NCBI GenBank assembly: GCA_963575745.1
Contig: CAUYUJ010000137.1
Coordinates: forward strand, 1-64,000
DNA from: Prorocentrum cordatum
Lineage: Eukaryota
DNA length: 64,000 bases
Direction of reading: 5' to 3'
In this document: in pieces, positions 19,339 through 59,389 of the stretch
How positions within the stretch are numbered: the stretch's first letter is position 1
Layout: the number at the start of each line of letters is the position of its first letter
Made by a program: the position numbers and the translations under genes
Notes under the pieces: generated by a model
Database searches by the model: none
What the model was told of the DNA's origin: nothing
What the model saw: the letters and a program-made list of their open reading frames with translations, nothing else

Positions 19339-21302
19339 GCTTTGATAACCGCGCTTCGTGGGCTGGTGCCCGGGGGCCGATTTCTGCCGTCTGGCTGTCT
19401 TTGCTCAGGGTGGGGTGGGGCATGGTCTCCCCCACGGGGAGTTGGTCGACCTCCTCCAGTTTTGCCCGTGGGCCGTGCGCAGGTTTGTTGAGGAAGGAAT
19501 TCGTCGGTGGCAGTCGGCGCGCATCTTGGAGCACCTCCCTAATGGTTCGCAGGCGTCGTGATGGAGGCGAGCCATGCGCCGCTCGGTGCTCAAAATACGC
19601 GACGCGAGCAGGAGGGGAGCTCTGAGGGCCCTCTGGGCCGCTGGCGTGTGGACACCAGTTCGTCTACATTCTATCCAGCTCCGCCCGACCCCCGAATGTT
19701 TTGTCTGCCGTCAGTGCCCGGGGACCGAGGCCCACCAGTGGTTTGGATGCCCCGTGGTCCTGGATGTCCCCGAAGATGAGCGGCCGCCCGATGATGTCCT
19801 GGAGCATCGGGAGGCCATGATTTCGAATCTCAGCAGCCCGCTCGACGGAATCGAGACGTTCTATCTTAGCTTTGGGCTGCCGCCCTTGCCGCCTTTTCCC
19901 GCTGCTCCTGCGAGCTCGCAACCAGTTCTTGGGTGGGGGGATTGGCGCGGAGTGTGGGGGCGGAAGGTGTACACGGACGGGTCTGGGTTGGCCTCCTCGC
20001 TCCCAGGTCTCACTCGATGCGGTTGGGCGGTCGTGGAGCTCGACGTGTCGGGGATCATCCTCCGAGCAGTTTTTGGAGCGCTCCCAGGCCCAGTCCAGAC
20101 TGTCCCTAGGGCTGAATACTATGCTTGCCTGATGGCGGTCAAGTGTGCTGGTTGTTCGGTGCACATCGTCTCTGACCATCTGTCTGCTGTCAAGACGGGC
20201 TCAGCATGGGGGCCCCATAACGAGTCGGCTCGCTCCCGGCATGCTTCGGTCTGGAGGTCCATGCATGTTGCCAGTGGTAGCTCGGACGAGCACCCTACGT
20301 TTCAGTGGGTGCCCGCACATCGTTCTGCTGAAGATGTACTGGGCGATTTGTCCGCTGATTTTCGGGATTTTGTTGGCAATGAGTGGGCTGACCACTTTGC
20401 GAAAAAAGGCGCTAGGTCTCATATGGTTGCCCAGGTGCTCCAGGACGTCCATCGGCAGCGTTTGGTCGAGGCCCAGAAGGACGCCCAAGTGTTTTCATGG
20501 ATGGCCCGCACAGTGGCACGGAGTGTCGATGAGCTCCAGCCGCGCGCTGGTGCACCAACGCCCAGACGAGCACCCCCTCCTGCCCCAATTGTGGCCCTTG
20601 AGACCCATGAGTTCATGGTTTGCGACCGGCTTTCTGAACATAGTTGTCGCGTCTGCAACCATTGGGCTCGGACCCCTGCCTCCTTGAAGGCGCTGCGCGC
20701 GCGTCCCTGCGCGCCCTCCCCTTTGCAGCGTGCCTCGGCGGCCAGGTACTCCAATCTCACTCCTGAGACCTACCGCCACCCCTCGGCCGCAGTTGCCGAA
20801 GCCGTGCGTGCTGCCCGTGACCTCGAGGAGGCGTCTGGCCCCGAGGCAGGGCGCGTCGAGGGGCAGCGGGTTGATGTCGTCGCCGTCGGGGGGGTCGACG
20901 GGGAGGTGGATTTGTGCAAGGAATTGGACCACGTTGCCGAGAGGTTCGGGTCGGTGGTCGTCTGTCTTGCGTGTGGTGCCTATTCCGTTGCTGGCGGCCG
21001 CGACAAGAAGTTGCAGCAAGCCAGATGCAAAGGGCATTCGGACGTTGCGTCCACTCGCGCCAACGAGGAGATGCATATCTCTCGTGCGATGCGCGGTTTT
21101 CATCCTCGCACTGGTGCCTCTTGCACCTAATGCCACCCTCGACGCCTAGTCTCCTCTGTTGGCTTGGCCGATGAGGTGGGGACGCAGCTGTTGAGGAAGA
21201 ACTGTGCTTTGCGGCGAGCTTCATGCCCTGTAGTGCAGATTATGTGTTTCACGCCGCTGGGGCGGGTCCGTTAGCTCGGACTCGCGCTTCCATCGCTCGG
21301 TA
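19339..21302 (+). mobile_element. 5'-truncated LINE (LINE B) flanked by (CCT)n on both sides
   Basis: Post-RT motif GPISAVWLSLLRVGW, then Zn finger, RNase H and 3' UTR; (CCT)n at about 19272-19338 and 21303-21378. Confidence 0.85.
19574..21130 (+). CDS. LINE B C-terminal region: Zn finger + RNase H + two H..CxxC..C fingers
   Basis: CFVC..HQWFGC; YTDGSG, QTVPRAE, IVSD, WVPAH, GNEWADHFAK; CRVC and CLACGAY repeats. Confidence 0.88.
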   Translation: MRRSVLKIRDASRRGALRALWAAGVWTPVRLHSIQLRPTPECFVCRQCPGTEAHQWFGCPVVLDVPEDERPPDDVLEHREAMISNLSSPLDGIETFYLSFGLPPLPPFPAAPASSQPVLGWGDWRGVWGRKVYTDGSGLASSLPGLTRCGWAVVELDVSGIILRAVFGALPGPVQTVPRAEYYACLMAVKCAGCSVHIVSDHLSAVKTGSAWGPHNESARSRHASVWRSMHVASGSSDEHPTFQWVPAHRSAEDVLGDLSADFRDFVGNEWADHFAKKGARSHMVAQVLQDVHRQRLVEAQKDAQVFSWMARTVARSVDELQPRAGAPTPRRAPPPAPIVALETHEFMVCDRLSEHSCRVCNHWARTPASLKALRARPCAPSPLQRASAARYSNLTPETYRHPSAAVAEAVRAARDLEEASGPEAGRVEGQRVDVVAVGGVDGEVDLCKELDHVAERFGSVVVCLACGAYSVAGGRDKKLQQARCKGHSDVASTRANEEMHISRAMRGFHPRTGASCT

Positions 21303-25841: not shown

Positions 25842-26499
25842 CACCCTGCGAAATGCTTTAGAAATCATGGGTTAAGAAATTCATAGTCTCAGAACTTGAA
25901 ATCTAACCCAACATTTCTATTCAAATCTTAGGAATTACATTGAAACGTTAAGAATAATCGAGACTCTGGCCGAAAATGTAAGTTTTCTTAAGCATCGCCT
26001 AAGGTGTACTGAAGAAGGGCTCGGGGACCGCGGGAGCAAACGTCCGCCTCCAGACAGAGCTCCCTGCGTCGACCCCGTGGGCACGTGAGCTCGGCTCGGC
26101 GCCCGTGGAGACGTGCCGCCCGCGGAGGCCAGGAGGTCGCGTGCCCGTGCGCCCCCCCTCCTGGCCCCCAGAAGGAGGAGGAGGCGGAGGAGGAGAAGCT
26201 AGGAGGAGGAGGAGGAGGAGGAGGAGGAGGAGGAGGAGGAGAAGGAGGAGGAGGAGGAGGAGGAGGAGGCGGAGAAGGAAGAGCTAGGAGGAGGCGGAGG
26301 AGGAGCTAGCAGGAGGAGGAGGAGGAGATCAGGAGATCAGGCGCGTGAGGGCGCCGTCTGACTAGCAAACAGCGCCTCGTGGGACCTCAGAGGAGGAGGA
26401 GGCGGAGGAGGAGGAGGCAGGCCCTGGAAAGGAGGGACGAGAGGGAGGAGGAGGCGGAGGCGGAGGAGGAGGCGGAGGAGGAGGAGGAGGAGGAGAAGG

Positions 26500-28420
26500 A
26501 CTTGGAACAATTATTTCCGTGGGTCCACGCAGACCTACTGGGACGAGGGCGGCACGGCGTGGTCCTTCCGAGTCCCGCCGTGTTTGCGATTGCATTGGCA
26601 CCGCAGCTGGAAGAGCTTGAACGGAGGCTCCAGGAGCGGGAGCCGCACCCAAAGGTGCTCGCGTATATGGACGACGTCTACGTGGTCATTGATGCGGCTC
26701 ATGCCCCGTTTGCTGTGGAGGTGTTGCGGAAACTGGCGGCTTCTCTCACGATGGAGCTGCGCGTCGATAAAACCAAACTGTGGACTCTCCGCCCAGATGC
26801 GGCCGTGCCCGCGGAGGTCGCTCGACTCCGGGTGCCGTCTCTGACCTGCCTGGGTTCTGTCTTGCCGTTTGTGCAGCGCGGCGATGGCGACGACGACGCG
26901 TTGGACCGTTCGCGGGCCCCGATACTGCAAAACAGCCCTGGCCAAGCAGCCCCTAGCCACCTTGCAGGCGTAGATGGGCCCACTGCGGGATCTCTGGGCA
27001 GCGGGGCTCAATGCGCAGGCGCGGCTGCTGCTCCTCCGGACTTTCGTCAACGGCGCCACAGTCCACCTTCACCGGGGCCTTCATGCTCCCCACAAATGGT
27101 GCGATTCCCTGGACGCCGAGGTCGTGGCCTTCGTCGAGGAGCTGCTTGGCGTGGCCCTTTCGGCAGCACAGCGCACGCGGATTTTCCTGCCTCTCCAGCT
27201 CGGGAGCCTGGGCCTGTGCTCCGTGGGCGCCTCAGGAAGCACGCAGCGCGCGTCGGCTCCTGGGATCAATGCGTCAGCGAAGTCGCCGGCCACATCGGTT
27301 GCACTTCCGCCAGCGGCTTCTTCAAGGGTGCCCCGCGAACTCGCGCCGCAATCCACGCAGCGGAAGCCGGTTTGCGAGCGCAGGGCATCGCCGGCGTCGT
27401 GCCTTGGGAACGGCGTTTCGGCAGCACGGGCCCCACCAGCAGAAGGTGTGGACGAAGGCGAATCACGAGGCTGTGCGCACGGGCCTCCTCCAGTCGCTCC
27501 CAGAGGACGAGAGGGGTCGACCTCCGCTCTGCCGGAGGCAAGGGCTCGGGGAGCTTCCTGCTGGTGGCGTGAGGAGCACCTGATGCCAGACGAGCACTTC
27601 ATAGCGGTCGTTCGAATGCGCTTGCGGGCCGCTGTCCACGCGCCCGGGCGCAGGTGCCAGCATAAGTCAGCGGAGACCAGGGCCGTCTGCAACGAAGAGC
27701 TGGACGGCAGGGGGCGCCACGGGCGGATCTGCAAGAGCAGCGGTGGCGCCGTGGCCCGGCACGACCACGTTCGGGACTGGCCAGCGGCGTGGGTGGCCGA
27801 GGTCGCCCGGCGGACTGCCTTGACGGAGCAGTCCGTGCCCCAGTGGGACCGGCGAGTTCGGGCCCCAGACGGGCGCGAGCGAATCGAGCGGGCTAAGCTT
27901 GACGTCGTGCTCGACAACGCCAGCGGCCGCTGGGTGCACGTGGACGTTGCCGCTGTGGAGGCTCCTACGCCGGACGGGCACGAGCGGCCGCAGCGGGCCG
28001 GCGGAGACGGAGCTGCAGCAGCAACGGCAGAGGATACGAAGCGCATGCGCTATCCCGGGCTGGGCTGGGCTTCTCTGGCTTTGCGGCGCGCACAAGGGGG
28101 TGGAGGGAGGGGGATGGCCTTCTTAGACGGAGGCTGCTTCTTAGAAGGCGCCGGCCTTACATCTATAGATCTATAGATAAGGCCCGCGCCTTCTAAGCAG
28201 GGGTGCTTCTAAGAAACCCTCCACCCTCCCCCACGCCCCTCTGCGCGTGGCTGACTGGCCTCGACGGACCCCGCCGAGAGGTCGCGGGTGTTGGGGGCCG
28301 CCCGGCAGAGCCTGTCTGTCCTGGTGCAAGTGGGCAGCGCCAAGGACGTGGTCTCGGCCAGCTGATAGGCCCCTGTCCACTGCGGACTTCAACCGAATTA
28401 GCTGGCCTCTTCTCCTTTCT
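26500..28420 (+). pseudogene. Degenerate 5'-truncated RLE-type (CRE-like) non-LTR retrotransposon
   Basis: Across frameshifts: SPAVFAIAL, AYMDDVYV, KTKLW, LPLQLGSLGL, C..C..H..ICK..RHDHVRD, KLDVV..VDV..AEDTKRMRY (PD-(D/E)xK-like nuclease) and terminal RQSLSVLVQVGSA. Confidence 0.85.
28087..28247. mobile_element. Palindromic fold-back insertion in the RLE domain
   Basis: Perfect central palindrome ATCTATAGATCTATAGAT (28161-28178) with imperfect arms; RLE-like coding resumes after it. Confidence 0.6.
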
Positions 28421-29721: not shown

Positions 29722-30939
29722 TCACACAGTGACGTCTGGCGTGCAGTCGCGCGGGGTGAAGATGAGCCGGGCTGCGGAGCGCGGGGACAGCACGGGCGTG
29801 GACGGGGGCGACGAGGACGAGCGGCCGCTGCCCGGCTTTGCGTGGGCGGGCTTGGACCCGGTCGAGGAGCGCCTGGACCTGGGCGAGTCGACGCACACCG
29901 CAAACCCCGCCCAGCGGAGAATCTCATCCACGATCCTCCTGGGGTCCTCGAGGATGGACTCGTGGCCCAAGCCTGGGAGCCTTACCAGCGCTACCTTGTC
30001 GCCACCGGCCCAAGACTGCACCTCCTGGGCGTGCTCGAGCGGGACCACGTTGTCCATGGTGCCCCAGAACAGCCCGAGCTTGGTCCTGGGCTCAGCCTGG
30101 CTCTCGACCAGCGACTGGAAGGTGGCCAACCTCTTGGCCATCGCGCCAGCGGCCAGGACCCTCGTGAGGATGCCGAAGATGGCCCACTGGATCTGCGGGT
30201 GTAGCTCGAACTTCCGCTTGCGAAAAGCGGTTGCCGAAGCGAGACCCTCCTTGTACAGCCGCGGCTGACCCTCCAGGCGCAAACACTGGTAATCATGCTG
30301 TGTGGCGAATGCCTCGTTTGCCTTGTGGATGTTGTCAAGGCAAGCGTTCCTGGCAATCTTAAACACCCTAGCGCTCGCCTGGAGCTGGGCGAGCCTAGGC
30401 AGGCGGTCGGCGATTGATCCCACAATTCCAGCGCTTTTCCAGAACGCGGGGGAGATCAACGCCAGGCGTTTCACGTGGTGACCCCCCGGCATTGTCGGCA
30501 AGCTCATCGCAGCCTGGACGCCCAAAACGCCACCGGCCGAATGCCCCACGAAAATGTCGACTGGTTCGCCCTCCTCCAGCACAAGCTCAAATAGCTCATG
30601 CAGCTGGGTCGACAACTCCTCGACGGAATACTTTGCCCCACCCTCGGCATAGGAGAAACCGTGGCCGAGGAGGTCGTACCTCAACACGCGGAAGCCGGTC
30701 TCTCGCAGGGCCTCCGCGAAATCGGCGTAGCCCGACAGACTGGCGCCGACGCCGTGCGCGAGCACCGCGATGGGCGCCCGCTCCCCCTCGCCGGGGAAAT
30801 TGTCGCACATGTCCTCCAGGAGGTAGTGCGTGACGCCGAACCTGCCCCGCAGGAACTCGCCGGCGGGCGGGCCGTAGAGCTCCGAAAGCGTCGCGAGGGC
30901 CGCCTCGGGCGGCCCCACGGGCTCGTCCACGCGTGGCAT
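29722..30939 (-). CDS. Alpha/beta-fold serine hydrolase, intronless, 405 aa from MPRVDEP
   Basis: VLAHGVG oxyanion loop, GFRVLRYDLLGHGFS, nucleophile elbow GHSAG, WGTMDNVVP (Asp), GLGHE (His). ATG at 30939 preferred because the sequence upstream is simple repeat. Confidence 0.92.
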   Translation of the reverse strand: MPRVDEPVGPPEAALATLSELYGPPAGEFLRGRFGVTHYLLEDMCDNFPGEGERAPIAVLAHGVGASLSGYADFAEALRETGFRVLRYDLLGHGFSYAEGGAKYSVEELSTQLHELFELVLEEGEPVDIFVGHSAGGVLGVQAAMSLPTMPGGHHVKRLALISPAFWKSAGIVGSIADRLPRLAQLQASARVFKIARNACLDNIHKANEAFATQHDYQCLRLEGQPRLYKEGLASATAFRKRKFELHPQIQWAIFGILTRVLAAGAMAKRLATFQSLVESQAEPRTKLGLFWGTMDNVVPLEHAQEVQSWAGGDKVALVRLPGLGHESILEDPRRIVDEILRWAGFAVCVDSPRSRRSSTGSKPAHAKPGSGRSSSSPPSTPVLSPRSAARLIFTPRDCTPDVTV

Positions 30940-31265
30940 CCGCTCCGTGCGCGGGGGGCAAAGGGAGGGGGAGGGGGGAGGAGAAGGAGGAGGGAGGAGG
31001 AGGAGGGAGGGGGACGAGGAGGGGGGAGCATAAGCTATGTGCGCTCGCGTCATATCTGACATCCTACCCCTCCCTCCCATCCCTTACCATGGCGTAGATC
31101 CCCTCTCTACTCGCACAGTCGGATGTTGAGCAGGGCAATGATCCCGAACGGGTATGCGATGCATTGTAGAGCACGGCATGGCATGGCGTAGAAGAGCACC
31201 GCAAAGCGTAATATCAACCTCACATTGCATTGCATGCCGTGGCATGGCACGGGAAATGACGCCAA

Positions 31266-47917: not shown

Positions 47918-48733
47918 TCACTCACTTGGCATCTTCGGTTTGGTGGCATTTTCGAATCTCATGCTCAGGCCCATCCTGCCCTTCCCAGTGTCCACGCTGA
48001 CCACACGGACCTGAACCTCCCGCCCGACCTTGAGCTCGCGCCTCATGTTTTTCACGATGCCGTCCTTGACCTTCGAGATGTGCACCAGGCCGCTCGCAGT
48101 GGCGTCGCTGCCCGGAGCCTTGATGGCCACGAACGCACCGTAGGAGCGGATGCTCACGACCTCGCCCTTGATCCAGGTGGCCGCGTCGATCCCCTCGAAG
48201 GGGGTCAGATCAACGGGCTCCCTCTCCACACGGGGGCGTGGGGGGCCCTCTCTCATGCTTAAGCTCATCCTGTTGGTCGCGGTGTCACAGCCGATGAGCT
48301 TCACCTTGACCGCATTACCAAGCTTGACGAAGTCGTAAACGCTTTCCACGAAGGCGTCTGCCATCTGAGACACGTGGACCAAGCCAATCCCCTCTTCGCC
48401 GCTGTCCAGGGTGATCTTGACGAACGCGCCGTACGGGGCAATGCTCACGACCCTCCCGAGAAACCACTCCTCGACCTTGCCTGCGAACGGGGTGACGTCG
48501 GTGACGTTACTTCCGCCCTCACTGGGGTCGGCGGCCATCGCAACGAGCAGGCGGGCGCCGCGCGCCTGGCCGAGCGCGGCGGCCGGCAGCCCGCTGCGCG
48601 CCATCGGGCCCGGCCCCCTGGCCGCAGGCAGGAAGCCGAGGGGGCCCTCCAGCACCTTGCACGCGACGGCCAGTGCGAGTGCGGCCGCGAGGCAGGAGCC
48701 TCTGGTCCGCCGGCTGGTCACTGCCGGAGCCAT
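47918..48733 (-). CDS. Two-S1-domain RNA-binding protein with bipartite plastid-targeting leader, 271 aa, intronless
   Basis: Two S1 repeats (GRVVSIAPYGAFV..GLVHVSQM..VKVKL..RMSLSMR and GEVVSIRSYGAFV..GLVHISKV..VQVRV..RMGLSMR); leader MAPAVTSRRTRGSCLAAALALAVAC..GFLP; first ATG after the SL relic. Confidence 0.93.
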   Translation of the reverse strand: MAPAVTSRRTRGSCLAAALALAVACKVLEGPLGFLPAARGPGPMARSGLPAAALGQARGARLLVAMAADPSEGGSNVTDVTPFAGKVEEWFLGRVVSIAPYGAFVKITLDSGEEGIGLVHVSQMADAFVESVYDFVKLGNAVKVKLIGCDTATNRMSLSMREGPPRPRVEREPVDLTPFEGIDAATWIKGEVVSIRSYGAFVAIKAPGSDATASGLVHISKVKDGIVKNMRRELKVGREVQVRVVSVDTGKGRMGLSMRFENATKPKMPSE

Positions 48734-48822
48734 CTCTTCAAAACTAGCCGGGGGGATGGAACAGGTCTCCCCCGGCTGACGCTCCGATGGCTTGGCGCAA
48801 GATCGACTGGGATCGAAGGGGC

Positions 48823-48844
48823 CTTGAACCACAATGGCCACGGA
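48823..48844 (-). other. Dinoflagellate spliced-leader relic
   Basis: TCCGTGGCCATTGTGGTTCAAG, 19/22 match to the SL, 89 nt upstream of the S1 gene ATG. Confidence 0.88.
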
Positions 48845-49638
48845 TTGTCCCGATGGTTGCCTTGATGATCGACCCGATTATCGTCCCAATGGTTGTCCTG
48901 ATGGCTAAACCGATGTTTGTATCGATGGTGTTGTGATGGTTGTCCCGGTGATTTTTCCCTTGGTTTTCCCGTCTGTTGCCCCGATGGTTATCCCGAGTCC
49001 CGATGAATCGGGTCAGATGAAATGCTGTCGGCACCCACGGCACCTCAAGATTTTGACCGACATGCAACAAACCAATCCGCTGGTTGTCTCGATGTTTGTC
49101 CCGATGGAACGATATAGGGAGCGACGGATGGATAAATATATCGATCGATGCACAATGGTATCAGTCGAAATGGTAGTGACTTGATAGTGAGAATGATGAG
49201 GACGGATACCGATTCGATTGGAAATCCGGTCGATATATAGATACTGATACCGACGGGTCAATAACGGCATCAATGGACAAGGGTATCGATACATAGAGAC
49301 AAAGGTCGGTGGGTATACAGTGAAACAGGCAGACCGTGGGATCCGTGGATCTCGGAATCGATGGATCAATCACGCTGCCGATGGCGAAGTATCTAGATGT
49401 ATGAATCGATAGGTCGACGACGCGTTGAAAAATACATGGGCACATGCACATTGAGGCCGCGGAATAGGTATACCGACACAGCTTGTTCGATAGATGGACA
49501 CGGTTGTCCCGATGTTTGTCCCGCCGCTGGTCCCCCCCAGCCTCCTTATCGGCTTTTGGCCAGTGGTCTAGGCATGCAAATAATTTGAGGGAGTTTCTGT
49601 GGAACTCACGTCATCCTCACCCCCGGCGCGAAGAGCAC

Positions 49639-51024
49639 GAGCCCAGAGCGGCCTCCGGCACCGTTTCCGGACGGATCCGCTGGATCCGCTGGATCCGCTG
49701 GATCCGGTGACGAATCCCAAACCGGCGCCCTCGCCTGAGACATCCTCACAAAACGGGCCCCGGGGGGGATGCCCAGAGGAGCCCAGAGCGGCCTCCGGCA
49801 CCGTTTCCGGACGGATCCGCTGGATCCGCTGGATCCGGTGACGAATCCCAAACCGGCGCCCTCGCCTGAGACATCCTCACAAAACGGGCCCCGGGGGGGA
49901 TGCCCAGAGGAGCCCAGAGCGGCCTCCGGCACCGTTTCCGGACGGATCCGCTGGATCCGCTGGATCCGCTGGATCCGGTGACGAATCCCAAACCGGCGCC
50001 CTCGCCTGAGACATCCTCACAAAACGGGCCCCGGGGGGGATGCCCAGAGGAGCCCAGAGCGGCCTCCGGCACCGTTTCCGGACGGATCCGCTGGATCCGC
50101 TGGATCCGGTGACGAATCCCAAACCGGCGCCCTCGCCTGAGACATCCTCACAAAACGGGCCCCGGGGGGGATGCCCAGAGGAGCCCAGAGCGGCCTCCGG
50201 CACCGTTTCCGGACGGATCCGCTGGATCCGCTGGATCCGCTGGATCCGGTGACGAATCCCAAACCGGCGCCCTCGCCTGAGACATCCTCACAAAACGGGC
50301 CCCGGGGGGGATGCCCAGAGGAGCCCAGAGCGGCCTCCGGCACCGTTTCCGGACGGATCCGCTGGATCCGCTGGATCCGCTGGATCCGGTGACGAATCCC
50401 AAACCGGCGCCCTCGCCTGAGACATCCTCACAAAACGGGCCCCGGGGGGGATGCCCAGAGGAGCCAGATCGGCCTCCGGCACCGTTTCCGGACGGATCCG
50501 CTGGATCCGCTGGATCCGGTGACGAATCCCAAACCGGCGCCCTCGCCTGAGACATCCTCACAAAACGGGCCCCGGGGGGATGCCCAGAGGAGCCCAGAGC
50601 GGCCTCCGGCACCGTTTCCGGACGGATCCGCTGGATCCGCTGGATCCCTGACGAATCCCAAACCGGCGCCCTCGCCTGAGACATCCTCACAAAACGGGCC
50701 CCGGGGGGGATGCCCAGAGGAGCCCAGAGGCCTCCAGCACCGTTTCTGGACGGATCCGCTGGATCCGCTGGATCCGGTGACGAATCCCAAACCGGCGCCC
50801 TCGCCTGAGACATCCTCACAAAACGGGCCCCGGGGGGGATGCCCAGAGGAGCCCAGAGCGGCCTCCGGCACCGTTTCCGGACGGATCCGCTGGATCCGCT
50901 GGATCCGCTGGATCCGGTGACGAATCCCAAACCGGCGCCCTCGCCTGAGACATCCTCACAAAACGGGCCCCGGGGGGGATGCCCAGAGGAGCCCAGAGCG
51001 GCCTCCGGCACCGTTTCCGGACGG
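49639..51024. repeat. Homogeneous 131/140-bp tandem repeat, about 10 copies, with nested (GGATCCGCT)n
   Basis: Unit starts recur at 49769, 49900, 50040, 50171 and 50311; the 9-bp length difference is one GGATCCGCT. Confidence 0.96.
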
Positions 51025-51728
51025 ACGACCTGACTGCATAACACGCCTGGATATGCCGACGGGGGCGAAGGAGGAGGAGGAGGAGGAGGAGGAGGAGGAG
51101 GAGGAGGAGGAGGAGGAGGAGGAGGAGGAGGAGGAGGAGGAGGAGGGGGAGGGGGCAGGCGAGGGAGCCCCGGCCCTGGGGGAGGGGCCCTGAATTGTCT
51201 AACCGCGCTATCTGGCACCTAGCCCACCAGCATCTGGCACCCAGGAATTAAGGTTCATAACTGATAATAAAATCCTCGCGCGTCGTCCTCGCCAGAGGTG
51301 GTACTGCCCTCCTAGGCCCTCCTCCAGGCCCTCCTCCAGGCCCTCCTCCACCTCGCCCATGGGCCCTCCTAGCTAGGCCCTCCTCGCCCTAGCGTCGCCC
51401 TCGCCCTCCTAGGCCCTCCTCCTCCTCCACCTCGCCCATGGGTGCCCACACTCGCTCTCTCCCTCACACAGTCCCATCGCCCCCCTCGCCATCGTCGTCT
51501 TCGTCGTCATCATCATCATCACCGCCACCATCATCCCGACACCCCCTTCTTCTCCCTCCTTCCCATATCTTCCGCTCTTCTTTTTTCTTCTCGACATCTA
51601 ACCAGGCCTGTCATGGGCTCTGTCTGGGCTGCTGCACTGCGTCCTCATCTAGCCCCGCCTCCTCATCATATCCTAGCCCCGCGCTGCTGCTGGCGACTTA
51701 CTACGTACCTAGTAGCCCCGCTCCTCAC

Positions 51729-52082
51729 TCACTGCATGAGGATCTTCACCCTGCGCACGCGCCGGTAGGTCCCATTACTAGAGTACTGGTAATGCTCGTC
51801 GCCGTCGTAGCCCCCTGTGCCGAAAACCACGGTGACGTCGTGGTCGAAGTAGTAGTCGGTCTGAAACTGAAACCACTTAGCTCCGGACTGGTAGGCGGCC
51901 TCAGTAGCCCTGGAGTGGTAGCCCCAGAAATCCACCCAAGCGCCATCCACCCAGGAATCCTCACAGCCCCAGCGGCTTTCAGCGAACTGCCAAGTGATGG
52001 CAGTAGCCTCGTCGTTGCTGATGCGCTTCGCATTATTAGCCCCCCACCAGCAGTTCCAGCGGCAGCAGCCCGCCCAGCACAT
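51729..52082 (-). CDS. WWE-domain protein (start uncertain)
   Basis: TWQF..GAWVDF..HSRATEAAYQSG..VTVVF..HYQ..NGTYRRVRR reproduces the W-W-E signature and the C-terminal G..RxVRR motif. Confidence 0.75.
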   Translation of the reverse strand: MCWAGCCRWNCWWGANNAKRISNDEATAITWQFAESRWGCEDSWVDGAWVDFWGYHSRATEAAYQSGAKWFQFQTDYYFDHDVTVVFGTGGYDGDEHYQYSSNGTYRRVRRVKILMQ

Positions 52083-53165
52083 CGTTTAGCGCCTAGTTGT
52101 AGCGCCCAGTATGTTAGCGCCTGGCGTGCGTCAGGCCAGCAGCTTGAGCCACTAGATGCAACCAGCAGCAGCAGCAGCGGGCGTAAGGGGTGCAGCGGCG
52201 GCGGCGGAAAGGGGGGGCATCTCGTTGGGGGCTATAATATTTGCGAAGGGGGGGGGTCGACGACGCCAGGGGGGGGCTATGTGGGTGGCAAGCCCGCGAG
52301 CATACGGCACGTCCGTCCATAGGGCCCTCGCCACAGCAGGCATCGCCACGTACCAAGCAACCCATCAGGTCGTCCTGGACCATGGGGCCCTGGCCCATCC
52401 ATGGAGCCCTCGCCCTCCGCCGCGACCTTCGCAGAGACTCCGACATTCATGGGCTCCTCGCCCACAACCGCCCTCCTCCTCAGCCTCCTCCTCCTCCCAC
52501 TCCTCCGACTCCTCCTCGCCTCCTCCTCCCCCTCCCCCTGGTCACCGCCATCGTCATCGCACCCATCGCCATCGCCATCGCCATCACCCTCCCCACTCAT
52601 CGCTATCGTCGCCATCATCATCACATTAATCATCCACCTCTCGTCGCTCTCCCCCCTCCTCCTCCCCCTTCCTCCTCCCCTGCTTCTTCCTCATCGCCAC
52701 TGCCGCATAATGATTAATAATCCTTTGCTGCGTCGGCATCAGCATTATTGCAACCGCTGTTGCCCCCACCATGACAGGCCGCCGTTGCTTTCCGCATCGC
52801 CTTCTTTTCGTCACCATCGCCATCATCACCACAGCATGATGATCACCGGATCGTGTTCCTCATTATTTGTTTTTTGCTCTGCATCACGATCCGAACAGTG
52901 CTCCTCTTCTTCCTTCTACCCCCCATCCTCGACCTCCTCCACTTCTTCCTCCACCTCCTCCTCCCTCCCCCCCTTTTCCTCCTCCTTTCCTTCCTCCCCC
53001 TTTTCCTCCTCTCCCTCCTCCCTCCGTCCTCCCCCATCCTCCTCCTCCTACTCGTCCTCCTCCTCCCCGTTCTCCTCCGCCTCCTCCCCCATCCCCCTCC
53101 CTCTCCTTCCTCCCCCTGCTCCTCCCTGTTCCCTTCCCTTCCTCCTCCTCCTCTTCAACCTTCCC

Positions 53166-53265
53166 NNNNNNNNNNNNNNNNNNNNNNNNNNNNNNNNNNN
53201 NNNNNNNNNNNNNNNNNNNNNNNNNNNNNNNNNNNNNNNNNNNNNNNNNNNNNNNNNNNNNNNNN
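53166..53265. other. Assembly gap (100 N)
   Basis: Run of N. Confidence 1.
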
Positions 53266-53297
<32 letters not shown>

Positions 53298-53407
53298 TTC
53301 TCTCCCCATATCTCTCCCCCTCTCCTTTTTTCTCTCTCACTCCCCCTCTCTATCTCTCTTCCTGTCTCTCTCCCCGGTCTCTCCCTATCTCCACCCTCCA
53401 TTTCAAT

Positions 53408-54557
53408 TCACCTGGTCCGCCGCTGGACACATATGTAAATGCAACTATACCCTGGATGGTGCCTGATCTCAAGCCCCCTCGCGTCGTCCGCGACGTTCTC
53501 CAGGGCCCCCCCCCAGCGACGACCGCCCTGAAATTATGGCCACCTCCTCCAGCGCCGCCGCCTCTGCGTCGGGCCACGAGCCGAGGACGACCATCTTCCT
53601 CCATCGAAGGCAGTGGCCATCCATCCACCCGCGGCGCCCTGACCTCCAGCTCGGCCCGCCCCGCCACCGCCACTCAGGGTCAGATGAGGAACCAATGTAC
53701 GCGCCCCTTAGCCCCGCGCAGTGGCGGCGGAGGGCCTCGCCCACCCGCCGTCGCAACTCGTTAGCGCTAACGCCCAACAATGGGCCTAGGTCCGTCGCGA
53801 CGATCTCAGCATGAAGACGCGTGGCGCGCGCAATGACGTCGAGGCTATCGCTCTGGGCATATTCCCATTGTAGATCTCTGGCGGTCAGTAAAGCGGGTGG
53901 CATTGCTCGCAAGGCGAAGAATAAATCATGCTGCGAGCCCTGAGGATGCCCCTCTCGGAGGGATTCCTCAGGGCCCCTTCTTCTCCTGTCGTGGCTCCCC
54001 GCGCGCGGCGCGACAATGCCGCCCGAAAAACAGACCGCCTGAAGCTCGCGTCGTTCTTCTGGAGCGAGGGGGCGGGCCCACCTTCCGAAAAAGGAAGCGA
54101 ACGAGGACCCAGCAGTCGCTCCGCCGGCGGCCGCCGCTGTCGCCGCTGCCAAGCCTGCGTCCTCCACGGGCGCTGCGTCCGCCGCGCCCGCCACGTCCCC
54201 CACGTCGTCCTCCACCACGTCTGCCACGACGTCCGGCGCGCCTGCGCCCACTGACCAGGGGGGGGCGCGCTCGGCGACCGCCGCGGGGCCAGCGGCAGCC
54301 GCGCCGCCAGCCCTGGCAGCGCGGGCTGCGCCTGCCACGTGGGCTGCTGCAGCGCTGGCCGCGTCAGCCGCGCTGCTGGCCCCTCCTACAGTGCAAGCCC
54401 ATCTGTCAGCGCGGTTAGCCCCAACCGCGCCAGCCACGTCAGCTCCAGCGCCTGCTGTGGCAGCTGCGTCGGCCCCCCCCTCCAGCGTCTGCCCCGCTGT
54501 TAGCGCCATTAGCCCCAGCAGTCGCGTTGGTCGCAATGCCACTGTTAGCCCCAACAA
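53408..54557 (-). CDS. GIY-YIG-like endonuclease with Ala-rich N-terminus; frameshift at the C9 run 53506-53514
   Basis: AYIGSSSDPEWRW..GH..AAALEEVAI, then in the shifted frame LENVADDARG..stop at 53408-53410; fits YIG..R..H..E..N catalytic order. Confidence 0.65.
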
Positions 54558-55020
54558 TGTTGAGGCAGTCGTTCAAACGACGACGCACCTGTCGTTGGTG
54601 CTGCCTGCGAGCTGCAGCGTCGCCATCATCCAGCTGGGGACTTCTGGCCAGCAGGCCTGCAGCGAACCATGGCTCAGGCGTGGCTGCAGCGAGGCGCGGC
54701 GGCCTCGCAGGCGAGGCAGGCGAAGTGAAAGCGCGGCTGCGCACTGTGCGGACGACGCCTGGCGCCGACGACGCAGCTGCAGGCGCCAGCAGTGCAGATG
54801 CCGGCGCCGGCTCAGCGGCAGGCGCTGGCGACGCGGCAGTCCGGCGCGCGAGCCCCGGGCGGGCTGCCTGTTCCTCCGCGCCCTCGTCGTCCGACAGCAG
54901 TAGCCCCAGCAGTTGATCTCCAAGCCTGGCCCTGCTTAGCGCCGGGCGAGCTGGCCGCTGAACACCGCCATCATCGCCCGACAGCAAGAGCCCCAGCAGC
55001 TCATCTCCAAGACTGGCCAT
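54439..55020 (-). CDS. Hypothetical protein with duplicated LGD(E/Q)LLGLLLS motif; may be the N-terminus of the GIY-YIG gene
   Basis: ATG start, internal duplication, overlaps the GIY-YIG ORF in another frame. Confidence 0.4.
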   Translation of the reverse strand: MASLGDELLGLLLSGDDGGVQRPARPALSRARLGDQLLGLLLSDDEGAEEQAARPGLARRTAASPAPAAEPAPASALLAPAAASSAPGVVRTVRSRAFTSPASPARPPRLAAATPEPWFAAGLLARSPQLDDGDAAARRQHQRQVRRRLNDCLNIVGANSGIATNATAGANGANSGADAGGGGRRSCHSRRWS

Positions 55021-55491
55021 CTACGCTGAGATCGCTGCGCGAGCCAAAACGGCCGCGGGGAAGCAGCGCAAGCTGCGCGGGGCGACGAGGAAGAGAAGGA
55101 GGTGGTGGGAGGAGGGGGAGGAGGAGGAGGAGGAAGGGGGGGCCGAGACACAAGAGGCAACGGGGATTGGAGGTGGAGGAGGAGGAGGCGGAGGAGGAGG
55201 AGGAGGGGGAGGAGGAGGAGGAGGAGGAGGAGGAGGATGGCGGGGGCGCGGGATGCCCGCCTGCTGCGCCCCCATTGTCGCAGCGTCGCATTGGACGCCG
55301 CAACAAGGGGGAGGGGATCGCGAGGAGCGAGGGTCAGCAGCGAGCCCACTGGGGGCCCTCTCCATGGAACCCTCCTCTTGCTCAGAGTATTGGGGGGGGC
55401 CTCTTGGGGCCGCCTTCCTGTGGGCATCGATCAATCAGATGCAGCGGTGGTGGTGGTGGTGGCGGCGGTGGCGGGGGGCCTAAAGACCCCT

Positions 55492-55532
<41 letters not shown>

Positions 55533-55533
<1 letters not shown>

Positions 55534-55830
55534 ACGCACGCACACGCACACACACGCGCACACACACATGCACACACACAAACACAACTACAAACACACA
55601 CACACACACGCACACACACACACACGCACACACACACACACACACCACCCCCCACCCAGGACACACACACGCGCACACGCACGCACGCACGCACGCGCAC
55701 ACGCACGCGCACACACATACAAACACACACACACACACGCACACGCACGCACGCACGCACGCATGCACGCACACACACTCTCACACACACACACACAGAC
55801 ACAGACACAGACACACACACACACGCACAC
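55533..55830. repeat. (CA)n/(CACG)n microsatellite after a poly-C run
   Basis: Direct reading of the sequence. Confidence 0.95.
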
Positions 55831-56787
55831 TTCTCTCTCCGGGACGATCGATTTCGCTTCCTGGGCGGCTTTGACTAAATAATATCAATTTTTCATAGCG
55901 GGAACGCAAAATAAAACATTGCTTCTCAGAGGAGGGCCCCGAAAGTACGCGACAACATTTCTCAGGCAGGGCACCTCGGAGCATGTTGGAAGCCATATCT
56001 GGCGATCTGCGGTGCGGTGGGACGGAGGAGGAGGCCATCTGGGGGCGGGCATCGCTGGCGGCCCTCGTCCTTTCGCCATCTTGGGCAATCTTTGGCGCTC
56101 TAAAGAATCGGCCAAACCCTTGCCGCCTTATACATGTGTATGAGTATGTATATATGTATATATATATATATATATAAGTTTGTATAGGTCCAGGGGGGGG
56201 GGGGGAGGGGGAGAGGTAAAAAACCAGGTCCAGAGGGGGGGGGGTAGGAGGGGGAGGGGTAAAAAAAACCCTCCCAAGGGGAAGAAGGAGGTTGGAAGAG
56301 GAAACTCTTTAGGCCACCTACGCCCTAAAGGGCCGGTGGGATTCGCTAGTAGTAGACAGACCACCTGCGGCCAGAGGGCGGCGGCAATAGTCGCGGTGGC
56401 GTTGGAGCGGCGGCACTGGTGGCGGGAGCGGCGGCAGTGGCGGTAGCAGAGCGGCAGTGACTGGGGCGGGGCGGCAGTGGTGGTGGTGGTGGCGGCGGCG
56501 GCGGGTGGCGGCGGCAGCGAGCAGCAGCGGCGGCGGCGGGCTGCTTCTTCGCCCTGCCCTCCCCGTGGCCCAGGTGGGCAGCGCTGGGCGGGCGCTGCTG
56601 GGCCTGCCGGCGACTGGTGGCGCGCAGGCGTCGCTCGAGAAGGCGTTGTTGCTGGGGCTAATAATCGCTGCCGCCCCCCCCCCCCCTCCCCCGCAGCAGC
56701 CGCCGCCCCCCCCCGCCTCCCATGGCGGTTGGCGGTGGCGCGGGGTCGAGGCAGGGGGGGGCGGCGGCTCGTTGGGCGGGCTAGAAG

Positions 56788-57933
56788 GTGGCGCGCGACA
56801 TGCTGATCGGCGACGCCCCGGTGCCTGGGTGGTCCGATCCGCAATCGCAGCAGGACTTGCTGGTTGGGAAAGACAAGGGGGGGCTGGTAGGTAGCTCCCC
56901 CTTAACCCTGGGCCCCTCCTCCCCCAGAGGCCGCTTGCTACCGACAACCTGGGGTAGTGGGGGCAGGATGGGCCGGCCGCCTGCTACAAACCTGGGGCTA
57001 GACATCACCCCCCCTGCCTGGCCACCTCGCGAGGACCAGCTGGAGACCCGGGTCTTGGAGGCGCTAAGCGCGGAGCACCGGCGGCGCCAGTGGGCGGCGG
57101 TGGTCGAGGAAGACCGCCGTCTCGCGACCTTGCCGCGCGTGCACTGGCTGTCGACTTATCCGAATAATCTCATTCCATCGAAGCTCTTGACGGGGTGGGG
57201 CATGAACTGGTGGCTCGGCGGCGTGGCGGCTGTGCAGGATAGGGCTATTAGCTTGGACTGGGACATCCTGGTGGACTGCCTCGGCGCCGGGCCTGGAGGC
57301 GGGGTGCGGCAGTGGGCGGCAGGGCTAAGGGACCCAGTCCACTTGCCAGCATCGTGGAATTACCATGGGGTCGCGCAGCAGCTGAGGGGTGCGATAAGAA
57401 CCCTGGCTGCGGCGCCGCGCGGGGCTAAGGTGCTCATCTTCTGCCGCCAGGGGGAGTGCCGGTCGGCGTGCGTGGCTGCTGTGTGTCTCTGCGCCATGGG
57501 GCTAATGAGGGTTGAGCAAGCGGTGCGCCTCGCGCGCGCGAGCCGCCCCCAGGCCCTCCCACCTGGCAACTCGCGCGCCATGGAGGACATCGCGAAACTC
57601 GAGAAGCTCTGGGAGAACGAGGGCGAGGCGCTAAGGCATGCGGCTGCGGCAGGCGCCGCCAGGGCTCGCGGGCGGCTGGGGGGCGAGGAGGGGGAGGGAG
57701 GAGGGGGGGGAGGAGAAGGAGGAGGAGGAGGAGGGCGACGACGACGAGGACGAGGGCGAGAACGAGAAGGACGAGGACAAGGTGGAGGAGGAGGACGAGG
57801 AGGGAGGGGGAGGAGGGAGGAGGACGAGGTGAGGAGGAGGGAGGAGGAGGAGAAGGAGGAGGAAGAGGACGAGGAGGACAAGGAGAGGGGGGAAGAGGAG
57901 GAGCAGGAACGCGAGGGGTCGGAAGAGAAATAG
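56788..57933 (+). CDS. Dual-specificity (PTP-superfamily) phosphatase-like protein; start uncertain and tail runs into (GGA)n
   Basis: WWLGGVAAV, ILVDC, KVLIFCRQGECRSACVAAVCL (CX5R P-loop, Cys at 57442), AVRLARASRPQALP in canonical DSP order. Confidence 0.82.
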   Translation: MARDMLIGDAPVPGWSDPQSQQDLLVGKDKGGLVGSSPLTLGPSSPRGRLLPTTWGSGGRMGRPPATNLGLDITPPAWPPREDQLETRVLEALSAEHRRRQWAAVVEEDRRLATLPRVHWLSTYPNNLIPSKLLTGWGMNWWLGGVAAVQDRAISLDWDILVDCLGAGPGGGVRQWAAGLRDPVHLPASWNYHGVAQQLRGAIRTLAAAPRGAKVLIFCRQGECRSACVAAVCLCAMGLMRVEQAVRLARASRPQALPPGNSRAMEDIAKLEKLWENEGEALRHAAAAGAARARGRLGGEEGEGGGGGGEGGGGGGRRRRGRGREREGRGQGGGGGRGGRGRREEDEVRRREEEEKEEEEDEEDKERGEEEEQEREGSEEK

Positions 57934-58554
57934 GAGGAGGAGGATGGGGGGGGGGAGGAGGATAAGGAGGAAGAGGACAAGGGGGATGATGACGAGGACA
58001 GGGGGGGAGGAGGAGTGGACGGGCAGGAGGAGGCGGGGGAGGAGGAAGACGATGAGAGGGGACGAGGATGTGATGAGGAGGTGAAGAGGAGGAAGAGGAG
58101 GAGGGGAAAAAGAGGAGGAGGCAGATGATGAGGGGGCGTAGTTCGTTCCAGGCAGAGTGATGAGGGGGGGGGGCCCTGCTGCTGTCCCCCCTGTCTTCCA
58201 TCTCCATCTCCTCGTCCTCCTCGTCCTCCTCGTCCTCCTCCTTCTCGTCCTCCTCGCCCCCCCCAACTTGGCCCCTCCTCCTCCCCCCCTCACCTGCTGC
58301 TGCTGCCCCCCTCCCCAAGGCTTCGACGAAGCCCAGTTGCCCTTGGGGGGGGCCGCCGTCACCGTGGCCTTCGAGCGCGGGTGCGCTCGCGTGAAGGGCG
58401 AGAGGGAGGCGGGGGGCTAAATTTCGGCGGGGCGCCGCCGCCGCGGGCGCCGCCGGAGCTAAGGTATAAGCGGACAGACGGCGCCTGGTTGCCGCAGCGA
58501 ATTTGGGAGAAAAGGTGGAAGAGACATAGATAGGGAGTAAGAGGGGGGAGGAAA

Positions 58555-58585
<31 letters not shown>

Positions 58586-59389
58586 GAGGAGGAGGAGGAG
58601 CAGGATGAGGAGCCTCCCCCTGACGACGAGACGACTACCATGCTTTTTATACCCGAAGGCTAGGGGCAAGAAACAGTACCGAGTTCAAAGGCAAACAAGA
58701 CGACGCGTCAATCAACTTCTTGTGCTTTCCATCGGCGGGCTTTAGCAACACCACGCCAGTGCCCTCGCTGCCCCCCCCCCCCAAAAAAAAAAAAAAAAGA
58801 GGGCCCCAGGGGGGGCATCATCTATAGGCAGGGGGATGCGCTTGTCCAAGGCAAGCGCATATTCAATTATTAAATGAGAGGAGGAGGAGCAGGAGGAGGG
58901 GCCAGGAAGAGAGAGGGGCAGGAACAGGAAGAAAGGAGCAAGTCATATTTGACTCGACATTATTTCCTGGCGCGTTCCCCCGCAGATTGGATTCCATGTG
59001 ATCTTAGCCCATCCATGCGATCTTAGCCCCCATCGCGCGTTCAATTCCATTAGATCCCATGCCCCCCAGCAAGTGAATGAGAGCCCCAGGAGGGTTGAAT
59101 CCTAGGTGCCAGATGCAGGTGGGCTAGGTGCCAGTTAGCGCGGTTAGACTTTCTGAGGGAGCCCTGATGGGCTTCCGGCACCATGGAGAGGTCCTGTGGG
59201 GCGGCCGGCCCTTCTTCTCTCGGTCGTTTCCCTCTCGCCCAGAAGCGCGCGCCCCTTCTTCTATATATGCAGAAACTCCCGATCAACCGCAGAGCGGCGG
59301 ATGTTACTGGGCTTCGGTGGAAAACCGCACAGGGCGTGAATGGGAAAGCGTGGGACTTCTGCCCAGCACCATCTCCTCGCCCTCCATGT

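What the first reader, a model, noticed from the sequence alone, without database searches (positions are those of the whole stretch)
51197..59149. 8-kb inverted-repeat-bounded unit carrying WWE, GIY-YIG-like nuclease and dual-specificity phosphatase genes, with no visible transposase
Seen: 50-bp inverted repeats (47/50), each with two TCTGGCACC-type sub-repeats 22 bp apart. Between them are intronless ORFs diverging from an AT-rich, microsatellite-rich centre (about 55500-56300): GIY-YIG-like and WWE leftward, DSP rightward. Known: WWE domains commonly bind poly(ADP-ribose); CX5R enzymes dephosphorylate proteins, lipids or RNA ends; GIY-YIG nucleases mobilise homing elements and Penelope-like elements. 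Inference: a mobile element or virus-derived module that pairs a nuclease with DNA-damage signalling modulators. I do not recognise this cargo set from any described element. No clean TSD was found (GCCCTGA at 51187 and 59161 is placed asymmetrically), and a transposase could hide in the gap.
Basis: partly seen in the sequence, partly recalled or inferred. Interest (0 to 1): 0.85.

Follow-up and report, generated by a model that had tools for sequence, protein, structure and literature searches.

The report
Cargo-carrying dinoflagellate transposon, undescribed nuclease
An 8-kb jumping gene in a red-tide-type dinoflagellate has sharply defined ends and a 4-base target duplication; it shows no transposase of its own but carries a DNA-cutting-type gene from an undescribed marine family, a phosphatase-like gene and one short DNA word repeated in a fixed direction along both arms.

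Summary
The unit is a real mobile element with ends 3 nt wider than reported: 51194-59152, 53-bp inverted ends (48/53) and a 4-bp target duplication, CTGA. Contigs from public runs show the empty site, both end types joined to this interior, and other flanks. The GIY-YIG-like gene (55020-53408) is broken at two homopolymers; an intact 537-aa copy exists elsewhere. It belongs to a 66-cluster family with conserved Y, G, R, H, E, N, no GIY strand before YIG, and a candidate replacement strand at the C-terminus. That circular permutation is suggested, not proven. The phosphatase-like ORF has CX5R and a second copy; WWE is only weakly supported. GGGCTA occurs 22 times on the coding strands against 4 on the opposite strands, in all three reading frames. 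No transposase is visible and the 100-N gap is unresolved. Best reading: a cargo-carrying cut-and-paste transposon moved in trans. The scan had no sequence match to this element, but noted other 4-bp-duplication elements and oriented words in this genome.

The parts
51190..51193 (+). Left copy of the 4-bp target duplication (CTGA)
   Evidence: Empty-site contigs carry CTGA once between the left and right flanks (tables 7 and 8); positions
51194..59152 (.). Whole element, 7959 bp including a 100-N gap of unknown true size
51194..51246 (+). Left terminal inverted repeat, 53 bp, starts ATT; two TGGCACC sub-repeats 22 bp apart; one TAGCCC
   Evidence: Left-type contigs in X2, X3 and X5 continue into this left interior; the X5 one reads ATT at its outer end next to a different flank
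51729..52082 (-). WWE-like ORF, 117 aa from the first ATG; 5' end unresolved among homopolymer runs
   Evidence: Pfam WWE E 0.046, below cut-off. Single-sequence model is low confidence (pLDDT 46) with strand-strand-helix-strand-strand-strand order. Gene model P0125 holds the same stretch
53166..53265 (.). Assembly gap between a (CTC)n and a (CT)n tract; could hide further genes
53408..55020 (-). GIY-YIG-like gene: long Ala/Gly-rich N-terminal region plus C-terminal nuclease-like domain; changes frame at the C8 run (54473) and the C9 run (53506)
   Evidence: Intact 537-aa P0001 aligns in three frames at 97, 97 and 100%. Family alignment and conservation. AlphaFold pLDDT 89.7 for family member P0007
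55493..56281 (.). Central non-coding region from which the genes diverge: C41, about 300 bp of CA-type repeat, a short TA tract and a 43-bp duplication
   Evidence: GC skew changes sign here
56785..57933 (+). Dual-specificity-phosphatase-like ORF (ATG at 56800; CX5R at 57442-57462), acidic low-complexity tail; 5' end unresolved
   Evidence: Pfam DSPc E 2.9e-5. PDB ShufPTP E 0.0013. Other copy in P0120 with 3 substitutions in the aligned part
51220..59126 (.). Oriented hexamer GGGCTA (mostly GGGGCTA): 13 on the minus strand of the left arm, 9 on the plus strand of the right arm, 4 in the opposite sense; each TIR carries one in its arm's orientation
59100..59152 (-). Right terminal inverted repeat, 53 bp, ends TTT on the plus strand (48/53 with the left; positions 2-3 differ)
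   Evidence: X5 record 26 stops exactly at 59152; X3 record 20 goes on from 59152 into another flank
59153..59156 (+). Right copy of the 4-bp target duplication (CTGA)

Best explanation
A cut-and-paste DNA transposon of a Prorocentrum-type dinoflagellate that has lost, or never had, its own transposase and is moved in trans. Shown: fixed ends, 53-bp inverted repeats with internal direct sub-repeats, insertion into a host repeat with a 4-bp duplication, and other insertion sites. Inferred: a DDE-type transposase from a related autonomous element binds the sub-repeats, excises the unit and joins it to a target cut with a 4-nt stagger. The three genes are passengers or accessory factors transcribed outwards from the centre. 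The best supported is a GIY-YIG-type nuclease-like protein from a family under purifying selection. My working guess is that the oriented GGGCTA word is a binding site that marks the element's own DNA for an element-family protein, as VANC motifs do in VANDAL elements, and that the cargo helps the element persist rather than catalysing the jump.
For: Empty site with a single CTGA: X3 record 22 (39 letters of left flank plus 83 of right flank), with shorter support in X5 (19 letters) and X1. Left-type TIR contigs run into this left interior in 3 of 4 runs and right-type ones into this right interior in X3 and X5. A different left flank appears in X5 and different right flanks in X3; X5 record 26 ends exactly at 59152 and X2 record 13 ends 3 letters beyond 59149. 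DNA transposons with 4-nt duplications are described in dinoflagellates (bioRxiv 10.1101/2020.10.14.339549, passages). Multi-gene TIR transposons with a kinase-domain passenger are described in ciliates (TBE; PMC4724952, passages). Other copies of the cargo: P0001 and P0120. dN/dS 0.18, 0.27 and 0.48 in three pairs of nuclease-family loci. Motif counts exceed all 300 shuffles in each arm.
Against: No transposase with these ends was found, so the mobiliser is assumed; earlier scan notes of hAT-like elements with 4-bp duplications are unchecked leads. The outermost three bases are not inverted (ATT against AAA), which is unusual for DDE elements (recalled). The duplication is established at one site only; paired flanks of other copies were not seen. 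Only one empty-site contig meets the tool's 31-letters-each-side rule, and the host site is itself a repeat, so it may be a paralogue rather than an allele. X1 holds the nuclease gene and the right interior but showed no contig over 59036-59139. None of 18 metagenome loci of the nuclease family showed the DSP or WWE gene, the TIR or the motif, though they are short (1.0-5.1 kb). One of the four runs could be the source of the window.
Confidence: 0.6

Rival explanations
1. The element is an autonomous or once-autonomous DDE transposon whose transposase gene lies in the unsequenced gap at 53166-53265; the three visible genes are accessory, as in ciliate TBE elements.
For: The gap is a 100-N placeholder of unknown size. 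Earlier scan notes report 17-42 kb multi-gene TIR elements in this genome (unchecked). The cargo family is under purifying selection, which fits an active element family.
Against: The gap sits between two low-complexity tracts, a typical break point that need not hide much. No transposase fragment or exon was recognised on either side (Pfam on selected frames only).
Confidence: 0.2
2. The GIY-YIG-like protein is itself the mobility enzyme: it cuts at the ends or at the target, and host repair completes insertion, giving a TIR element class without a DDE or tyrosine recombinase.
For: It is the only nuclease-type gene seen. Y, G, R, H, E, N and a C-terminal Y are kept in 59-66 of 66 family representatives. 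The terminal three bases are not inverted.
Against: GIY-YIG enzymes are known as hydrolytic cutters, not strand-transfer enzymes (recalled). Direct sub-repeats in TIRs plus a short duplication are the usual DDE signature (recalled). No TIR was seen near 18 family loci, although these are short.
Confidence: 0.07
3. A deletion remnant of a polinton-like virus or other integrated DNA virus, which carry TIRs and GIY-YIG genes.
For: PLVs of the dinoflagellate Oxyrrhis carry TIRs and GIY-YIG (PMC12721341, passages). The two best BFVD fold matches are giant-virus proteins, one named GIY-YIG (probability 0.97 and 0.94, E about 0.01, TM 0.45).
Against: No capsid, ATPase, polymerase, integrase or recombinase gene is seen. 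Those PLVs have 230-860 bp TIRs, no target duplication and a GC drop; this unit has 53-bp ends, a 4-bp duplication and host-like GC of 0.65. No relatives in IMG/VR or PHROGs (3 single weak hits among 35 members).
Confidence: 0.07
4. The two repeats belong to independent short elements, or the scaffold joins halves of two insertions across the gap.
For: No read or contig examined spans the gap. The host site is multi-copy, so two insertions at the same position of different host copies could be joined.
Against: The flanks join exactly in the empty site with one CTGA. TIR contigs fall into a left type and a right type that match these interiors. The same oriented word marks both sides of the gap and both arms.
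Confidence: 0.04

Closest known systems
Non-autonomous DNA transposons with 4-nt duplications in dinoflagellates (introner-like elements of Symbiodinium and Polarella; bioRxiv 10.1101/2020.10.14.339549, passages read)
   Same: Inverted ends, 4-nt target duplication, no transposase of their own identified in the passages read, same host group
   Different: Those are intron-forming inserts in exons. This unit is 8 kb, lies in a host repeat and carries three protein genes. End sequences were not compared.
TBE transposons of Oxytricha (Tc1/mariner group; PMC4724952, passages read)
   Same: Alveolate TIR element with three ORFs in both orientations, a central tandem-repeat stretch, and a passenger with a signalling-enzyme domain (kinase there, phosphatase-like here)
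   Different: TBE encodes its own 42-kD DDE transposase, has 78-138 bp telomere-bearing TIRs and a 3-bp ANT duplication; no sequence relationship was tested.
GIY-YIG nuclease superfamily (I-TevI, PF01541; T5orf172)
   Same: YIG strand followed by Arg, a later hydrophobic strand, a helix with invariant Glu, and Asn; ESM Atlas first hit GIY-YIG at 0.92; Pfam GIY-YIG in 6 of 35 members, best E 0.0013
   Different: No GIY strand before YIG (1 of 61 members has a look-alike). A conserved C-terminal YSF[IV]Y[VI]C strand and a DARG motif are added, plus a long low-complexity N-terminal region. No solved GIY-YIG structure was matched.
Polinton-like viruses of dinoflagellates (OmPLV; PMC12721341 and PMC12166617, passages read)
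   Same: TIR-bounded, GIY-YIG gene, dinoflagellate host
   Different: No capsid, ATPase, pPolB, integrase or recombinase seen; short TIRs; 4-bp duplication where OmPLV has none; no GC drop.
VANDAL/VANC anti-silencing system of Arabidopsis Mutator-like elements (PMC5735166, passages read)
   Same: A short element-specific word in many same-orientation copies inside a DNA transposon
   Different: VANC motifs are 9 bp, mainly non-coding and arise by tandem repeats. GGGCTA is 6-7 bp, dispersed, lies inside ORFs in all three frames and flips at the centre. No binding protein is known here.

Membership tests
Cut-and-paste (TIR) DNA transposon | Terminal inverted repeats at fixed ends | tested here: met
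   48/53, ends confirmed by contigs in other runs; positions 2-3 do not match
Cut-and-paste (TIR) DNA transposon | Target-site duplication relative to an empty site | tested here: met
   CTGA twice in the window, once in empty-site contigs; one site only
Cut-and-paste (TIR) DNA transposon | Copies at several genomic sites | tested here: met
   Different flanks in X5 and X3; other cargo copies P0001 and P0120
Cut-and-paste (TIR) DNA transposon | DDE/D transposase in the element or in an autonomous partner with the same ends | tested here: inconclusive
   None in the sequenced part; gap unresolved; genome not held
hAT superfamily | 8-bp target duplication (recalled) | tested here: not met
   4 bp; earlier scan notes report hAT-like elements with 4 bp in this genome, unchecked
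GIY-YIG nuclease superfamily | YIG strand with downstream Arg | tested here: met
   Best of 134 windows against an I-TevI-like profile, z 7.0; hhalign E 4e-4 over 21 columns, probability 34%
GIY-YIG nuclease superfamily | Conserved Glu on a helix and Asn near the end | tested here: met
   E in 62 of 66 and N in 59 of 66; E lies on the predicted helix 105-126; the profile window for the E helix ranked first at z 2.9, but the N window ranked fourth
GIY-YIG nuclease superfamily | GIY strand about 10 residues before YIG | tested here: not met
   Look-alike in 1 of 61 members; the model has a helix and loop there
GIY-YIG nuclease superfamily | GIY strand supplied by circular permutation from the C-terminus | tested here: inconclusive
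   The C-terminal strand is the best of 140 windows for the GIY strand (z 3.6) but also the best for strand 3 (z 3.2); moving it to the front gave no hhalign gain (26.6 against control mean 26.7, sd 0.5, 130 controls)
GIY-YIG nuclease superfamily | GIY-YIG fold by structure comparison | tested here: inconclusive
   No PDB match (Foldseek none at E 0.001; VIA best Z 4.4, unrelated); BFVD rank 2 is a GIY-YIG-named giant-virus protein, probability 0.94
GIY-YIG nuclease superfamily | Metal-dependent DNA cleavage | not testable with these tools
   Needs an assay
Dual-specificity / PTP-fold phosphatases | CX5R P-loop | tested here: met
   CRQGECR, aligned to the P-loops of ShufPTP and a DUSP; Phe in place of the usual His before Cys
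Dual-specificity / PTP-fold phosphatases | General-acid Asp in the loop before the P-loop | tested here: inconclusive
   The pairwise alignment puts Trp opposite the Asp of ShufPTP; a single weak alignment
WWE domain (PF02825) | Profile match above the curated cut-off, or WWE fold | tested here: inconclusive
   14.5 bits against 21.1 over profile 3-67 of 67; Atlas no usable hit; model pLDDT 46, fold searches uninformative
Polinton-like viruses / Mavericks | Capsid, packaging ATPase, polymerase, integrase or recombinase genes | tested here: inconclusive
   None in the sequenced part; gap unresolved
Penelope-like elements | GIY-YIG fused to reverse transcriptase | tested here: not met
   The intact copy P0001 ends 8 residues after the C-terminal Tyr and has a low-complexity N-terminus; the one long relative scanned, P0047, has no Pfam hit

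The most novel reading that the evidence does not exclude
This is a family of TIR elements that has no DDE transposase or recombinase at all and moves with a circularly permuted GIY-YIG nuclease, or uses that nuclease together with the oriented GGGCTA word as a self/non-self system (the word marks the element's own DNA while the nuclease acts on unmarked or target DNA). Either would be a new transposition or selfish-maintenance mechanism in eukaryotes, with a first permuted GIY-YIG domain as its core.
Probability: 0.1. Interest if true: 0.9.

Novelty: new variant of a known kind. Interest (0 to 1): 0.58.

Why it matters
Dinoflagellate genomes are huge and full of non-autonomous DNA transposons whose mobilising enzymes and passenger genes are mostly unknown. 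This element gives exact ends and a 4-bp duplication to search with. It also gives a conserved, unnamed nuclease-like family (66 clusters at 50% identity) that standard profiles nearly miss and that may be a permuted GIY-YIG domain. The domain is about 150 residues, folds confidently and has clear catalytic candidates, so it can be assayed directly. The oriented word adds another case of element-specific DNA marking in this genome, here not a hairpin, which bears on how transposons persist in a nucleus with unusual chromatin.

Tried and rejected
Whole-genome search was not possible: no genome held. Exact TIR patterns found nothing in viral contigs or metagenome contigs. The word-indexed protein search with the nuclease region found 0 hits among 4233 candidates; the full phmmer scan then found 66. 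The nuclease family has no confirmed relative in viral contigs (0 of 37 pattern matches) or in prokaryote genomes (0 of 455). DSP: 0 of 2 in viral contigs. The two viral hits for the WWE-like ORF are chance matches inside an unrelated 453-aa ORF that looks like a phage portal protein (L061 inspected, name recalled). PDB sequence searches gave nothing meaningful for the nuclease or the WWE-like ORF. No GIY-YIG chain was listed in the PDB fold searches; these aligners may miss a permutation. The hhalign permutation test showed no gain. The hairpin reading of GGGCTA was rejected: mean best stem 3.25 bp (20 sites) against 3.5 and 3.6 in controls, and weaker folding than controls. A simple GGGCTG-to-GGGCTA conversion is not supported, because GGGCTG is not depleted in the element. 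A fold-back reading was rejected: the arms share only the TIR and low-complexity tracts. 'TT' and 'TGA' were considered as the duplication and rejected, because other copies fix the ends at ATT and TTT. No RNA holder was listed for the nuclease gene, which is no evidence on expression. The joint 58903-58620 is an edge artefact of the stretch laid. Contig depths were not used as copy numbers. Literature: no paper held all of 'DNA transposon', 'GIY-YIG', 'WWE', 'phosphatase'. Two searches for permuted GIY-YIG listed 18 and 3 papers, none on this by title or abstract start; I did not open them. The library lacks most subscription papers.


Full report
Setting. The window is GC-rich, full of microsatellites and retroelement fragments. 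The closest named relatives of two ORFs in the unit are Prorocentrum cordatum gene models, so the organism is probably that dinoflagellate or a close relative. No whole genome is held, so genome-wide tests were replaced by protein searches and by contigs of public runs.

The ends. The reported repeats are real: 47/50, with sub-repeats 22 bp apart and no other copy of their core words in the window. I laid contigs of four public runs on 58620-59385. Three runs hold a contig that joins the window's left flank directly to 59153 with a single CTGA: X3 record 22 (39 and 83 letters on the two sides), X5 record 28 (19 letters on the left) and a loose end in X1; none is listed for X2. Only the X3 contig meets the tool's 31-letter rule. 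In the window CTGA stands at 51190-51193 and 59153-59156, so the insert is 51194-59152 with a 4-bp duplication and 53-bp ends matching at 48/53; the first three bases read ATT on the left and AAA on the right. Other copies fix these ends. A left-type contig in X5 reads ATT next to a different flank; a right-type contig in X5 stops exactly at 59152; a left-type contig in X2 stops three letters past 59149; two X3 contigs leave 59152 into other flanks. Left-type contigs in X2, X3 and X5 continue into the window's left interior. One contig each in X2 and X3 carries a variant end with 10 differences over 59083-59152, which suggests a subfamily. Against: X1 shows no cover over 59036-59139, the host site is a repeat (so the empty site may be a paralogue), and one run could be the window's source.

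The nuclease-like gene. A phmmer scan of 1.84 billion representatives returned 66 proteins. The best, P0001, is an intact 537-aa copy that aligns to 55020-53411 in three frames at 97-100%. The window copy changes frame at a C8 and a C9 run, which may be assembly error or decay. The ten clusters looked up carry no names and come from short ENA, Logan and JGI contigs. Across the 66, Y442, G444, R452, H470, E492, N509, D513, R515 and Y529 (P0001 numbering) are kept in 59-66 sequences. Three pairs of metagenome loci give dN/dS 0.18, 0.27 and 0.48 over about 137 codons (pairs chosen by hand from 18 loci). AlphaFold gives a confident model for member P0007 (pLDDT 89.7). Support for GIY-YIG is weak but concordant: ESM Atlas first hit 0.92 with 131 shared features, below the 170 typical of close family members; Pfam in 6 of 35 members, best E 0.0013; the YIG-Arg block is the best window against a profile of 24 I-TevI-like domains at z 7.0; the two best BFVD fold matches are giant-virus proteins, one named GIY-YIG. 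PDB fold searches found no GIY-YIG. The family lacks the GIY strand before YIG (look-alike in 1 of 61) and ends in a conserved YSF[IV]Y[VI]C strand. That strand is the best of 140 windows for the GIY strand (z 3.6) but also the best for strand 3, and moving it to the front did not raise the hhalign score over 130 controls. A circular permutation is therefore a reasonable hypothesis, not a result. The roles of the I-TevI residues are recalled. No RT is fused, so this is not a Penelope ORF. No relative was confirmed in IMG/VR or prokaryote genomes.

The other two ORFs. The rightward ORF has CX5R and matches DSPc at E 2.9e-5 and ShufPTP at E 0.0013. Trp stands opposite the acid-loop Asp in that alignment, so activity is uncertain. 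A second copy with three substitutions in the aligned part is spliced into gene model P0120 on a 275-kb contig, beside fumarylacetoacetase-like exons that are not in this window. The WWE-like ORF covers the whole Pfam profile but stays below cut-off; Atlas and structure tools add nothing firm. Gene model P0125 on a 577-kb contig holds the same residues; its other exons are not in the window, so it is probably, not certainly, another copy. Those gene models use GC-AG or GA-AG joints, which the annotation pipeline of a P. cordatum genome allows (PMC10666404, passages); whether they are real introns is open. I could not see the three genes together in a second copy, and none of 18 short metagenome loci of the nuclease family held DSP, WWE or the TIR.

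An oriented word. TAGCCC/GGGCTA occurs 26 times in the unit and 12 times in the other 56 kb. It reads GGGCTA on the coding strand of each arm 22 times and on the other strand 4 times, with the copy inside each TIR in its arm's orientation. Interior counts of 12 and 8 exceed all 300 dinucleotide shuffles (expected 1.7 and 2.2). The word falls in all three reading frames, and four host ORFs totalling 10 kb hold one copy. It is not a hairpin and is not enriched in the 18 family loci. Because polarity follows both the gene direction and the nearer end, the data cannot separate an RNA-level from a DNA-level signal. The closest described case is the VANC motif of VANDAL elements (PMC5735166, passages), a lead taken from an earlier scan note; those motifs are longer and mainly non-coding.

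How it most likely works. Shown: a discrete unit with fixed inverted ends inserted with a 4-nt stagger and present at several sites. Inferred: a DDE transposase acts on the ends, supplied in trans (0.6) or hidden in the gap (0.2). Four-nt duplications are described for dinoflagellate DNA transposons, and three-gene TIR elements with a signalling-enzyme passenger for ciliates. Earlier scan notes describe hAT-like elements with 4-bp duplications in this genome; I did not check them. A PLV origin fits poorly: OmPLV has long TIRs, no duplication and viral core genes. The cargo is best read as accessory.

Verdict. A real, multi-copy, cargo-carrying TIR transposon: a new variant of a known kind. I found no description of the cargo set or of a permuted GIY-YIG in the searches listed, within the limits of that library, and no earlier scan note matched by sequence. 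Interest 0.58; about 0.9 if the nuclease proves to be the mobiliser or part of a self-marking system (probability about 0.1).

Noticed in passing
window 49639-51025: About ten copies of a 140-bp satellite (94% matches) with an internal 9-bp repeat, just left of the element; a short part of the right flank near 59156-59182 resembles its unit by eye, though blastn did not report it.
   Followed up: partly
window 51153-51193 and 59153-59300: The host site is itself a multi-copy repeat in four public runs. The target reads as a near-palindrome (CCCT-G-AGGG) with the 4-bp duplication off-centre.
   Followed up: partly
window 54408-54428: An 11-bp copy of the TIR's terminal word lies inside the nuclease-like gene, as one arm of an 8-bp hairpin around a GGGCTA site.
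   Followed up: partly
window 58993-59029: Subterminal 19-bp tandem pair carrying two GGGCTA words in the orientation opposite to the rest of the right arm.
   Followed up: no
window 58709-58815 and 58952: Other copies differ here: X2 and X5 contigs carry a longer stretch between 58708 and 58816, and X2 and X3 contigs leave the reference at 58952 into another sequence.
   Followed up: no
window 1635-7751 (+): Open 2038-codon LINE-like ORF with an endonuclease/exonuclease/phosphatase domain and RT- and RNase H-like regions by eye.
   Followed up: partly
window 19562-21130 (+) and 26349-28176 (+): Further retroelement fragments: an RNase H domain, and an RT fragment followed by a region resembling a restriction-like endonuclease (recalled).
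   Followed up: partly
window 47921-48877 (-) and 29725-31083 (-): Intronless host-type genes (S1-domain protein with a leader; alpha/beta hydrolase), probably retrocopies.
   Followed up: partly
L004:409-1944 (+); L009:2416-3565 (+): Unnamed ORFs next to nuclease-family genes in marine contigs; no Pfam match. They may be other cargo of related elements.
   Followed up: partly
P0001, P0002, P0010, P0026, P0040, P0058 (N-termini): Six of 25 longer family members share a short hydrophobic-acidic motif (LxxLLsdD-like) near the N-terminus, twice in P0001 and P0002, ahead of a poorly conserved low-complexity linker.
   Followed up: partly
L008-L015: In this group of near-identical loci the nuclease-family gene, read in L008 and L009, has lost the normal C-terminal DARG and YSF part by a frame change, yet the same form is held in several assemblies.
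   Followed up: no
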